A DNA stretch of 64,000 nt from an uncultured Nitrospiraceae bacterium (GTDB lineage Bacteria; Nitrospirota; Nitrospiria; Nitrospirales; Nitrospiraceae), in NCBI GenBank assembly GCA_963846575.1, contig CAWJWJ010000002.1:1696001-1760000 (forward strand), written 5' to 3'. The position numbers were made by a program. Positions 27,001-30,000 of this stretch are shown here, piece by piece. Numbering within the stretch: the first letter of the stretch is position 1; the number at the start of each line of letters is the position of its first letter.

Positions 27001-30000
27001 CCAACTTCAGCGCATGGCACACTTCGATGGTACGCCATACCGGATTCCCGAGCACTGTTTCCGCCGGGACCAGTTTCATATCCGACACGGCACCGTCGAG
27101 CAGCACCCTCGCAGCCACCTGCATCTTGTCTTTCGGCGGATGGCTGATCACCGCGAATATCGTCTGCTCTCCGTCAGCCAGCGCCGCCTGAGAGAGGGCA
27201 AGCACGACGATGACTCCCATCACGAGCGAACGGAACCGAATCATACTTACCTCGTTGTCGCCTCCGAAGATGTGCCGGAAGGGAGATTCTGACCTGGTCT
27301 CACGGGAGCTGGCGATCCTGACGCACCGCCGGGGCTCGGGCCGCCGTGACTCAAAGTGCTACGGCCGACTCGCGGCTCACCTAATGTTCCTGAGGTGTTA
27401 TTCGAAGGACCGGCGGGATGATCTCGCCAAAGCATCACCAGGCCCACGCCGAGTATCAGAATTCCAGCCACTAGCAGGAGTCGCCCCAAGGTCACCGTTC
27501 CCTCGCATTCACGCTCGCATCTCTGTCGGTCAGTATGCCAAGCCGGTCAGTTCAATTCAAGGTGATGGCTGAGCAGGGGGCATGGATCATGGTAAGCTCA
27601 GTCAGATACCGTTCCAACCAACGATCACCGCGGGAGGCTCAGTAGTGACACCTGCGGGGGCACGCGTAGGCAGAAGGGGAGATCATTTATGCCGCACGAC
27701 TTTATGCCGGGCTTAGCCGGAGTTCCCGCCGCGAAATCAGCGATCAGTGATGTGGACGGCACGCGAGGCGTGCTCGAATACCGAGGCATCCGGGTTGAGG
27801 AATTGTGCCAGCAGTCCTCCTTTCTGGAAACCAGCTATCTGCTGCTGTTTGGACGGCTCCCGACGGAGTCCGAACTCCGCCGCTGGGTTCAAGACGTGAC
27901 CCATCATCGCCGGATCAAATTTCGCATTGTGGATCTCCTCAAGGCCCTGCCCGAACATGGTCATCCCATGGACGCCTTGCAGGCGGCCGTCGCCGCGCTG
28001 GGTATGTTTTATCCGGGACGCAATGTAAAAGACGTGGATAACAATTACTGGTCGGCGGTCCGACTCATCGCCAAGCTTCCGACCATCGTAGCAGCCTGGG
28101 CCCGTCTTCGGCGGGGAGACGAATATATTCCGCCACGGGATGACCTCTCGTTCGCCGATAATTTCCTCTACATGCTGAACGAGACGGTTCCGCATCCGCT
28201 CTGGAGCGAGGTGTTCGACGACTGTCTGATCCTCCACGCCGAACACACCATGAACGCATCGACGTTTGCCGGCATGGTCACGGCCTCAACCCTGGCTGAT
28301 CCCTACACCGTGGTGGCCTCATCGATCGGGGCGCTGAAGGGACCGTTGCACGGAGGGGCGAATGAGGAAGTCGTGACCATGCTCCGGAACATCGGCGCGC
28401 CGGCGCAAGCCCGGGCGGCCGTAGAGGCCAAACTGGCAAAAAATGAGAAGCTCATGGGATTCGGCCACCGGGTCTACAAGGTCAAAGATCCCAGGGCCAC
28501 CGTGCTACAGGAGCTCAGCATGCGGCTGTTCAATGTCTGTGGCACCTCGCCCCTCTACGAGGTGGCGGTGGCCGTGGAACAGCTGGCCAACGATCGTCTC
28601 CAGGGCAAGGGCATCTATCCGAACGTCGATTTTTACTCGGGTATTATCTACGACAAGATGGGTATCGAACTGGATCTGTTTACGCCGCTGTTCGCGATGG
28701 CGAGAGTGAGCGGATGGCTGGCGCATTGGCTGGAACAACTACAAGAGAATAAGCTGTACCGGCCCGACCAAATCTACTCGGGGGAACACAACCAATCCTA
28801 TGTACCGATCGACCGGCGCTAGGCTATTCTGTCCGACCGACGAACCACCAGACGACGAGGGACGTCACAAACATAAACCCGCCGAGCACCGCATAGGATA
28901 CAAATTCCAACATAGATCTTCCCCTCCGGCAAAGGGGAATAATAAATAATGCCGAGCCCTCTAATGTCAAGGCCTTCCATCGATGTTCACCCCTTCCACT
29001 CGCCCTTGACTTCATCGCTGCCGAGCTTACCTCCTTACTAGTGAGTAGGGCATTACGTAGATGAACACTCTCAGCCTAGTTACACAAGGAGGTCCTGTTA
29101 TGACACTCGTGAAATGGGATCCGTTCAGGGAGTTGGAAGAAATGTCGGAGCGCTTGAACTGGATGTTTGCCAAACCGACGACTCATCCGACAGTGGGGCA
29201 GGGGAAGGAAGTCATGACCGTGGCCGACTGGACCCCCACCGTGGATATCACGGAAACGGAAGGCGAGTACGCCATTAAGGCGGAGCTACCGGAAGTCAGG
29301 AAAGAAGACGTCAAAATCACCGTCGAAGACGGAGTCCTGACACTCCAAGGCGAACGGAAGCAGGAAAAGGAAGAGACGGGAAGAAAGTACCACCGGATTG
29401 AGCGATCCTACGGCCGCTTCGTGCGCAGCTTCACGCTTCCCGACACGGTCGACGAGAGCAAGGTTCGGGCGGACTATGCCGAGGGGGTGCTGCATTTACA
29501 CCTCCCGAAATCCGAAAAAGCAAAGCCGAAGCAGATCGAAGTGAGGATTGCCTGACGGTGCTTCACTCTTGGCCGGCAGGGCCTATGCCTGAGAACAGCG
29601 GCCCGACTCGGGGGCCGCTGTTTTTCCATCAGCGACAGATCTCTCGTGAACAGTCCCGCCGTCACGCGCGACTGGCTTCGGTTCAAGGTCTTTCCCAACT
29701 GCGCACATTCCGTTCGTGAGAGTCGTGCCCCCCTCTCTTTCACCGTGCCTCCGGGTGAAACAACCCGACAATCCACCCGCATCGAATGATCTCGCGTAAT
29801 CTTTCGAACGTTCGGCAATGCTTGTGCTTCCCCAGCGTGACCGTTTATTATGCGCGGCTCCAGCACGTAAAACGCCTGTCAGCTTTTCGAGGAGACCCGA
29901 CGATGAAGAAGCGCTCTCGCACGTCCCGTACCAGCCCGGCGACCAACGGCCGCGACAACTCCCTGGCGATCAGCACTCGTATGGAACGCGACACCATGGG

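What a model noticed while it worked through the whole genome (the two positions that open the first line are those of the whole stretch)
28990..29600. The Nitrospira heat-shock promoter: TTGACTT-N15-(T/C)TA(T/C)CT before groES, grpE-dnaK, clpB and three hsp20 genes, with [...]
Chaperone genes share a promoter TTGACTT-N14-16-YAYCT distinct from the housekeeping TTGACA/TATAAT, most likely read by the RpoH-type sigma g01938; HrcA and CtsR are absent.
Evidence so far: Call 201: 6 of 10 genome hits are groES, grpE, clpB, three hsp20. Calls 203, 207: of 29 loci from family genomes (one unpublished genome left out), 16 precede groES, 2 hsp20, 2 lon. No HrcA/CtsR rows. Search 205 found no description (listing only).
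(Added by a program. Inside this text positions count along the whole contig: contig position 1,696,001 is position 1 of the stretch shown here. "Call 12" and the like, gene names such as g00115 and contig names such as C1 are that model's own, and its searches are not shown. The text may have been shortened before it was handed on; [...] marks where a part breaks off. The agent that wrote the report below was given it as the finding of a first reader that could run no searches.)

Follow-up and report, generated by a model that had tools for sequence, protein, structure and literature searches.

The report
Nitrospira sigma-32 heat-shock promoter
Nitrospira bacteria put one shared DNA start signal in front of their protein-repair genes, most likely read by their sigma-32 heat-shock factor, and across their phylum nearly every sampled genome has either this factor or the HrcA repressor, almost never both.

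Summary
The element is real; the counts need correcting. The literal pattern has 8 genome hits, 4 before chaperones; clpB and two hsp20 sites are one-base variants. Better consensus: (C)TTGACT-N16(17)-TAYCT. A matrix trained only on other genomes' groES sites ranks groES, grpE, lon, hsp20, clpB, dnaJ-like, hsp20, htpX as 1-8 of 2722 upstream regions, so the pattern is not circular. Its geometry differs from this genome's sigma-70 promoters and fits sigma-32. The RpoH-family sigma passes PRK06596, lies beside groES, and has Q at E. coli K130, fitting the missing CCCC. Order Nitrospirales: RpoH 61/61, HrcA 0/61. Phylum sample of 150: RpoH only 47, HrcA only 99, both 1, neither 3; CIRCE precedes groES in 38/38 HrcA genomes, 0/22 others. 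Other RpoH-only families carry same-register variants. Main rival: an RpoD-like sigma confined to the same two families. No expression data. Verdict: a new member of the sigma-32 regulon class; gene already annotated rpoH, promoter and either-or distribution not found in print.

The parts
29005..29011 (+). -35 element (C)TTGACT of the putative sigma-32-class promoter
   Evidence: TTGAC invariant in 55 distinct groES sites and 55 distinct hsp20 sites of relatives
29012..29027 (+). 16-bp spacer, variable in sequence, fixed in length (17 bp at htpX and at 4 of 5 grpE sites of family f2)
29028..29032 (+). -10 core TACCT (consensus TAYCT); A at offset 23 from the first T and T three bases later; no conserved T at the sigma-70 position (T in 7 of 67 groES, 0 of 12 grpE, 10 of 55 hsp20 sites)
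29039..29041 (+). Inferred transcription start (pyrimidine at offset 33 in 55 of 55 hsp20 sites, purine-rich at 34-35); not measured
   Evidence: inference
29087..29092 (+). Ribosome-binding site AGGAGG
   Evidence: sequence
29100..29555 (+). hsp20 / small heat-shock protein, 151 aa
   Evidence: PF00011 E 9e-28; NCBIfam sHsp models, all below their cut-offs
29594..29625 (+). GC-rich hairpin with a short T run after hsp20, possible terminator
   Evidence: read from the sequence; not reported by the terminator scan

Best explanation
The element is a sigma-32 (RpoH)-class promoter, (C)TTGACT-N16/17-TAYCT, that drives the core protein-quality-control genes of Nitrospirales: groES-groEL, grpE-dnaK-dnaJ, clpB, one lon, htpX, a dnaJ/cbpA-like gene and the hsp20 genes. 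It is read by the single RpoH-family sigma encoded next to groES. Shown: the element, its targets, its difference from the sigma-70 promoter, the sigma's family, its linkage to groES, the lack of HrcA/CIRCE and CtsR. Inferred: that RpoH binds it; that heat or unfolded proteins induce it; that RpoH is made from a sigma-70-type extended -10 promoter and, lacking self-activation, is controlled after transcription (by analogy with E. coli, recalled).
For: Hold-out ranking 1-8, 12, 13 of 2722. Conserved before groES in 74 of 74 named Nitrospiraceae loci that held groES (of 80 fetched) and 6 of 6 of family f2, before grpE in 16 of 16 f1/f2 loci, before hsp20 in 56 of 64 Nitrospirota-labelled against 1 of 15 other loci. 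Housekeeping class is TTGAC with TAnnnT at offsets 23/24 (106 and 95 against about 7 at other offsets); the heat-shock class has TA at 22 and T at 26, the A-T-N-T core of E. coli sigma-32 (TTGAAA, CCCCATWT; passages). The sigma scores 260.5 against a cut-off of 241 on PRK06596, best solved relative E. coli RpoH, groups with RpoH (SH-aLRT 100), lies within 600 nt of groES in 51 of 74 loci and within 2.3 kb in the rest. E. coli K130, which is implicated in reading the C-rich stretch, aligns to Q175 here, as in Ehrlichia, whose sigma-32 promoters also lack CCCC. RpoH 61 of 61 and HrcA 0 of 61 in the order. Families f8, f10, f12 have RpoH, no HrcA, no hit to the rival RpoD-like sigma, and a same-register element before groES (6 of 7, 3 of 3 one base longer, 6 of 6) and, in f8, before grpE (7 of 7) and one lon.
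Against: No transcript start, binding or heat-shock data. The sigma fails the proteobacterial equivalog TIGR02392 (264 against 323). The -35 is TTGACT, closer to sigma-70's TTGACA than to TTGAAA, and the clpB, lon and fourth hsp20 sites also read TAnnnT at a 16-bp spacer. Usual sigma-32 targets lack the site: tig-clpP-clpX, clpC, second lon, both ftsH, hslVU, both proteasome clusters. An RpoD-like sigma has exactly the range of the TTGACT/TAYCT form. No such element was seen directly before grpE in f10 (0 of 3) or f12 (0 of 6). In family f2 genus g7 the pattern also hits many non-chaperone places (12 of 30 loci from five genomes were chaperone/protease genes).
Confidence: 0.85

Rival explanations
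1. The promoter is read by the second RpoD-like (group 2-type) sigma, G000:C1:994574-995833(-), not by RpoH.
For: Found in f1 23 of 23 and f2 10 of 10 and in 0 of 117 other genomes at E<=1e-90, the same range as the TTGACT/TAYCT form. Its own upstream carries the element in 4 of 4 genomes of the own genus and weakly in a few others, which could be self-activation.
Against: Its regions 2.3-2.4 and 4.2 are nearly identical to RpoD (KFSTYATWWIRQ, VTRERIRQIEAKAL), so it should want TAnnnT. The element is missing upstream of it in most other genomes (11 of the 17 outside the own genus had no candidate), which fits a lineage-limited target. f8 and f12 lack it yet have a same-register element, sharing TG at offsets 18-19 with the grpE, lon and clpB sites. 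It leaves RpoH, kept in 61 of 61 genomes beside groES, without a job.
Confidence: 0.08
2. The sites are unusual sigma-70 promoters (16-bp spacer, weak -10) whose stress response comes from an unknown repressor or activator.
For: TTGACT is a good sigma-70 -35; three sites have T at the sixth -10 position.
Against: The sixth position is not conserved while the fifth T is nearly invariant; the sigma-70 class of this genome sits one to two bases further out; no CIRCE within 3 mismatches in the genome and no HAIR- or CtsR-like site at any regulon promoter (those two consensus motifs recalled); spacer sequences vary freely, leaving no operator.
Confidence: 0.06
3. The RpoS-like sigma (C2:482224-483282) reads it as a general-stress promoter.
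For: It is present in 22 of 23 f1 genomes.
Against: Not found in f2 (0 of 10 at E<=1e-80) where the element persists, and present in most HrcA/CIRCE families.
Confidence: 0.01

Closest known systems
E. coli sigma-32 (RpoH) regulon, TTGAAA ... CCCCATWT
   Same: RpoH-family sigma with an RpoH-box-like QRKLFYNLKK; TTG -35 and A-T-N-T -10 core; targets groESL, grpE-dnaK-dnaJ, clpB, lon, htpX, small Hsps; no HrcA (E. coli did not ring).
   Different: -35 is TTGACT; no CCCC extension; K130 is Q, H107 is W; clpPX, hslVU, ftsH lack the site and htpG was not found; rpoH is linked to groES.
Alphaproteobacterial RpoH promoters (Ehrlichia sigma-32 TATATN; Rhodobacter RpoHI with TTG, C-37, T-9)
   Same: C before TTG, loss of the C-rich stretch, a conserved late T; Q at the K130 position in Ehrlichia (passages).
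   Different: Different hexamers; Caulobacter keeps both RpoH and HrcA (controls), Nitrospirales do not.
Delta-proteobacterial sigma-32 plus HrcA/CIRCE regulons (Rodionov et al. 2004, PMC545781)
   Same: Nearest relatives of the Nitrospirota RpoH by similarity; Desulfotalea lacks HrcA and has predicted sites such as CTTGAcA-N13-aCttAT (passages).
   Different: There most genomes keep both systems and the stated consensus is CTTGAAA-N11/16-CCCCAT; here the two systems exclude each other in 146 of 150 genomes.
HrcA/CIRCE regulon
   Same: Controls groES in the other Nitrospirota families (CIRCE 38 of 38).
   Different: Neither repressor nor operator found in Nitrospirales.

Membership tests
RpoH / sigma-32 factors | Whole-protein score above a curated sigma-32 model (PRK06596 subfamily) | tested here: met
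   260.5 bits against 241; 61 of 61 order genomes over the cut-off
RpoH / sigma-32 factors | Proteobacterial RpoH equivalog TIGR02392 | tested here: not met
   264.1 against 323.1, though it is the top-scoring model
RpoH / sigma-32 factors | RpoH box (region C; name recalled) | tested here: met
   QRKLFYNLKK aligns to E. coli QRKLFFNLRK; QRKLF invariant in alignment A1
RpoH / sigma-32 factors | Groups with RpoH apart from RpoD/RpoS in a tree | tested here: met
   SH-aLRT 100 in a quick IQ-TREE run of 64 rows; careful search not finished; no alphaproteobacterial reference of certain identity
sigma-32 promoters | TTG -35 plus A-T-N-T -10 core, distinct from TAnnnT | tested here: met
   reference consensus passages
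sigma-32 promoters | E. coli-type TTGAAA and CCCC extension | tested here: not met
   TTGACT; offsets 19-22 are mostly G/C-G/C-C-T. The extension is also missing in Ehrlichia
sigma-32 regulon | Targets are chaperones and proteases | tested here: met
   10 of the top 13 ranks (identities); misses listed
sigma-32 regulon | RpoH-dependent transcription from the site | not testable with these tools
   needs in vitro transcription or ChIP
sigma-32 regulon | Heat induction and DnaK/FtsH feedback | not testable with these tools
   no heat-shock data set found
HrcA/CIRCE | hrcA gene and CIRCE operator | tested here: not met
CtsR | ctsR gene | tested here: not met
   0 matches in G000 only, controls rang; relatives not searched
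HspR/HAIR | HAIR inverted repeat at chaperone promoters; hspR gene | tested here: inconclusive
   5 sites within 2 mismatches, none at a regulon promoter (motif recalled); the protein was not searched

The most novel reading that the evidence does not exclude
An ancestor within Nitrospirota carried both RpoH and HrcA, and lineages then kept exactly one: HrcA was lost several times independently (four places on a DnaK tree, at least two forced by strong branches), and in each RpoH-only lineage the promoter drifted to its own form in one register (TTGACT/TAYCT, TTGMC/TAAAT, TTGCC/TATAT). The phylum would be a replicated natural experiment in swapping negative for positive heat-shock control and in sigma-promoter co-evolution, with a Nitrospirales-only RpoD-like sigma hooked under RpoH in one genus.
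Probability: 0.5. Interest if true: 0.6.

Novelty: new member of a known kind. Interest (0 to 1): 0.42.

Why it matters
It gives a defined alternative-sigma promoter and stress regulon for Nitrospira, the dominant nitrite oxidisers and comammox bacteria, usable for annotating start sites, reading stress state in metatranscriptomes and building inducible reporters. It extends the sigma-32 regulon beyond the proteobacteria in the wide sense. The near-perfect exclusion of RpoH and HrcA across a phylum makes the question of how regulons are rewired testable by comparison.

Tried and rejected
RNA evidence: no RNA holder was listed for window 28800-29700, so no reads were laid. The literal first-reader pattern was dropped as too strict. 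Genome-wide counts of the short pattern are only about 1-3 times the reversed control per genome, so counts alone prove little; position and target identity carry the case. ffh and doxX, ranks 11 and 10, also read as sigma-70 promoters and are not counted as members. RpoH self-activation: 0 of 80 rpoH loci carry the element. RNA thermometer in the hsp20 leader: folding at 25, 37, 45 C was inconclusive. Plasmid search found only coding-region likeness to sHSP20-GI. Earlier notes of this scan: nothing shown. The careful RpoH tree did not finish and no AU test was run. The DnaK tree left out G121 (short hit). The hypergeometric value rests on a gene list drawn after seeing the ranks and is not used. 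No fold or complex prediction was run: neither can test DNA specificity.

Full report
Observation. The window holds TTGACTT-N15-TACCT at 29006-29032, 94 nt before an hsp20 gene (29100-29555), once, against 0.02 expected. Relatives of the genome's genes are named Nitrospira. The clpB site ends TATGT, the third hsp20 begins TTGATTT, the fourth ends TATTT. The working consensus is (C)TTGACT-N16(17)-TAYCT.

Is it circular? No. I built a matrix from 55 distinct groES sites of other genomes and scored 2722 upstream regions from my own gene calls. Ranks 1-8 were groES, grpE, lon, the window hsp20, clpB, a dnaJ/cbpA-like gene, another hsp20 and htpX; ranks 12 and 13 were the last two hsp20 genes (identities). 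A relaxed pattern hit 14 regions against 3.3 in shuffles, 10 of them these genes. Misses: tig-clpP-clpX, clpC, the second lon, both ftsH, hslVU, both proteasome clusters and rpoH itself; htpG was not found. In relatives the element precedes groES in 74 of 74 named loci that held groES (80 fetched) and 6 of 6 of family f2, grpE in 16 of 16, hsp20 in 56 of 64 Nitrospirota-labelled loci against 1 of 15 others (one locus without upstream DNA dropped). Of 30 loci taken from 60 pattern hits in five other genomes, 12 were hsp20, grpE, groES, lon or htpX, all with the 16-bp spacer; for the three f1 genomes 9 of 12 16-bp hits.

Which class of promoter? The housekeeping class of this genome is plain: TTGAC followed by TAnnnT at offsets 23 and 24 (106 and 95 cases against about 7). 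The chaperone class has TA at offset 22 and a nearly invariant T at 26, while offset 27, the sigma-70 T, is free (7 of 67, 0 of 12, 10 of 55). That is the A-T-N-T core of sigma-32 promoters (E. coli TTGAAA, CCCCATWT; passages of PMC6687850) without the C run. A pyrimidine at offset 33 in 55 of 55 hsp20 sites suggests a start near 29040 (inference).

Which sigma? The genome has 13 Sigma70_r2 matches. C2:635520-636530(-) passes PRK06596 (260.5 against 241), fails TIGR02392 (264 against 323), is closest to E. coli RpoH among solved structures and groups with RpoH. It lies within 600 nt of groES in 51 of 74 loci and within 2.3 kb in the other 23. E. coli K130 aligns to Q175; the same paper passage reports Q at this place in Ehrlichia, whose sigma-32 promoters also lack the C run. 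rpoH has no copy of the element (0 of 80) but TGnTATAGT shortly before its start in 60 of 80 loci, so it is probably transcribed by sigma-70 and controlled later (inference). The RpoS-like sigma is excluded by range. A real rival appeared: a second RpoD-like sigma found in exactly f1 and f2 (33 of 33; 0 of 117 others), with the element upstream in 4 of 4 genomes of the own genus.

Distribution. Order: RpoH 61 of 61, HrcA 0 of 61. Phylum sample of 150 genomes at least 85% complete: RpoH only 47, HrcA only 99, both 1 (G105), neither 3 (G040, G045, G050; 85-91% complete) (RpoH searched at E<=1e-55, so a very divergent copy could be missed). Before groES, CIRCE was found in 38 of 38 loci from HrcA genomes and 0 of 22 from the rest (60 of the 150 genomes fetched). 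The other RpoH-only families have their own element in the same register: f8 TTGMC-N13-TGRTTAAA before groES (6 of 7), grpE (7 of 7) and one lon; f12 TTGCC-N13-TGRTTATA before groES (6 of 6); f10 one base longer (3 of 3). The TG at offsets 18-19 also occurs in 12 of 12 grpE sites of f1/f2. On a quick DnaK tree of 60 rows the RpoH-only state needs 4 changes, 2 forced by strong branches. Nitrospirota RpoH formed one clade with weak support (SH-aLRT 83), and f12 sits differently in the two trees, so repeated loss is favoured but transfer within the phylum is not excluded. Kin are not independent; these counts are not a statistical test.

Literature. The gene is already annotated rpoH (NITMOv2_1295, next to groS) in N. 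moscoviensis, at about 87 RPKM in steady culture at 39 C, with one hsp20 at rank 10 and no hrcA row (supplement rows of PMC6606698; passages); databases name relatives sigma-32. I saw passages of PMC545781, PMC3441632, PMC6687850, PMC10490939, PMC12342949 (no hit for sigma, promoter or chaperon) and PMC10470456. Ten searches, read as listings only, showed no description of this promoter, regulon or RpoH/HrcA pattern. Subscription papers, including the original Nitrospira genome papers, and bioRxiv supplements were not searchable and could bear on that claim.

Verdict. A real, conserved promoter that works like, and most likely is, a sigma-32 promoter (0.85). It is a new member of a well-known kind. 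What adds interest is the lineage-specific consensus and the either-or spread of RpoH and HrcA across the phylum. Interest 0.42.

Noticed in passing
G000:C1:994574-995833(-); L011, L431-L450: A second RpoD-like sigma confined to families f1 and f2 (33 of 33, none in 117 others); the heat-shock element precedes it in the own genus. Function unknown; a possible sigma cascade.
   Followed up: partly
L005:7933-9597(-) (G000:C2:633932-635596): A gene of about 535-554 aa with no NCBIfam match sits between rpoH and groES here; a gap of like size separates the two in 23 of 74 relatives' loci.
   Followed up: partly
upstream of G000:C1:709774(+); L415, L420: doxX- and pirin-like genes (names from my reading of the sequences) carry a palindrome of the type AGTTCTAN-TAGAACT inside their promoter, recurring in several genomes: a likely operator of an unknown repressor.
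   Followed up: no
upstream of rpoH, L014-L093: TGnTATAGT extended -10 close to the rpoH start in 60 of 80 loci, implying a short leader.
   Followed up: partly
G105 (L116, L157, L281): The only sampled genome with both RpoH and HrcA; its groES has a perfect CIRCE.
   Followed up: partly
L378: A 1.6-kb contig labelled Pyrinomonadaceae carries a Nitrospira-type hsp20 with the same promoter and leader; probably mis-binned, or transferred.
   Followed up: no
G000:C2:180835-187651 and C2:2356869-2363117: Two proteasome gene clusters, neither with the element.
   Followed up: no
window 29200-29540: The hsp20 coding region is about 66% identical to plasmid-borne sHSP20-GI genes of enterobacteria; the promoter is not shared.
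   Followed up: no
window 23767-24396(+): A J-domain protein gene in the window; its upstream was not examined individually.
   Followed up: no
G036:C2:183957-184442(+): The grpE match holds one in-frame TGA.
   Followed up: no
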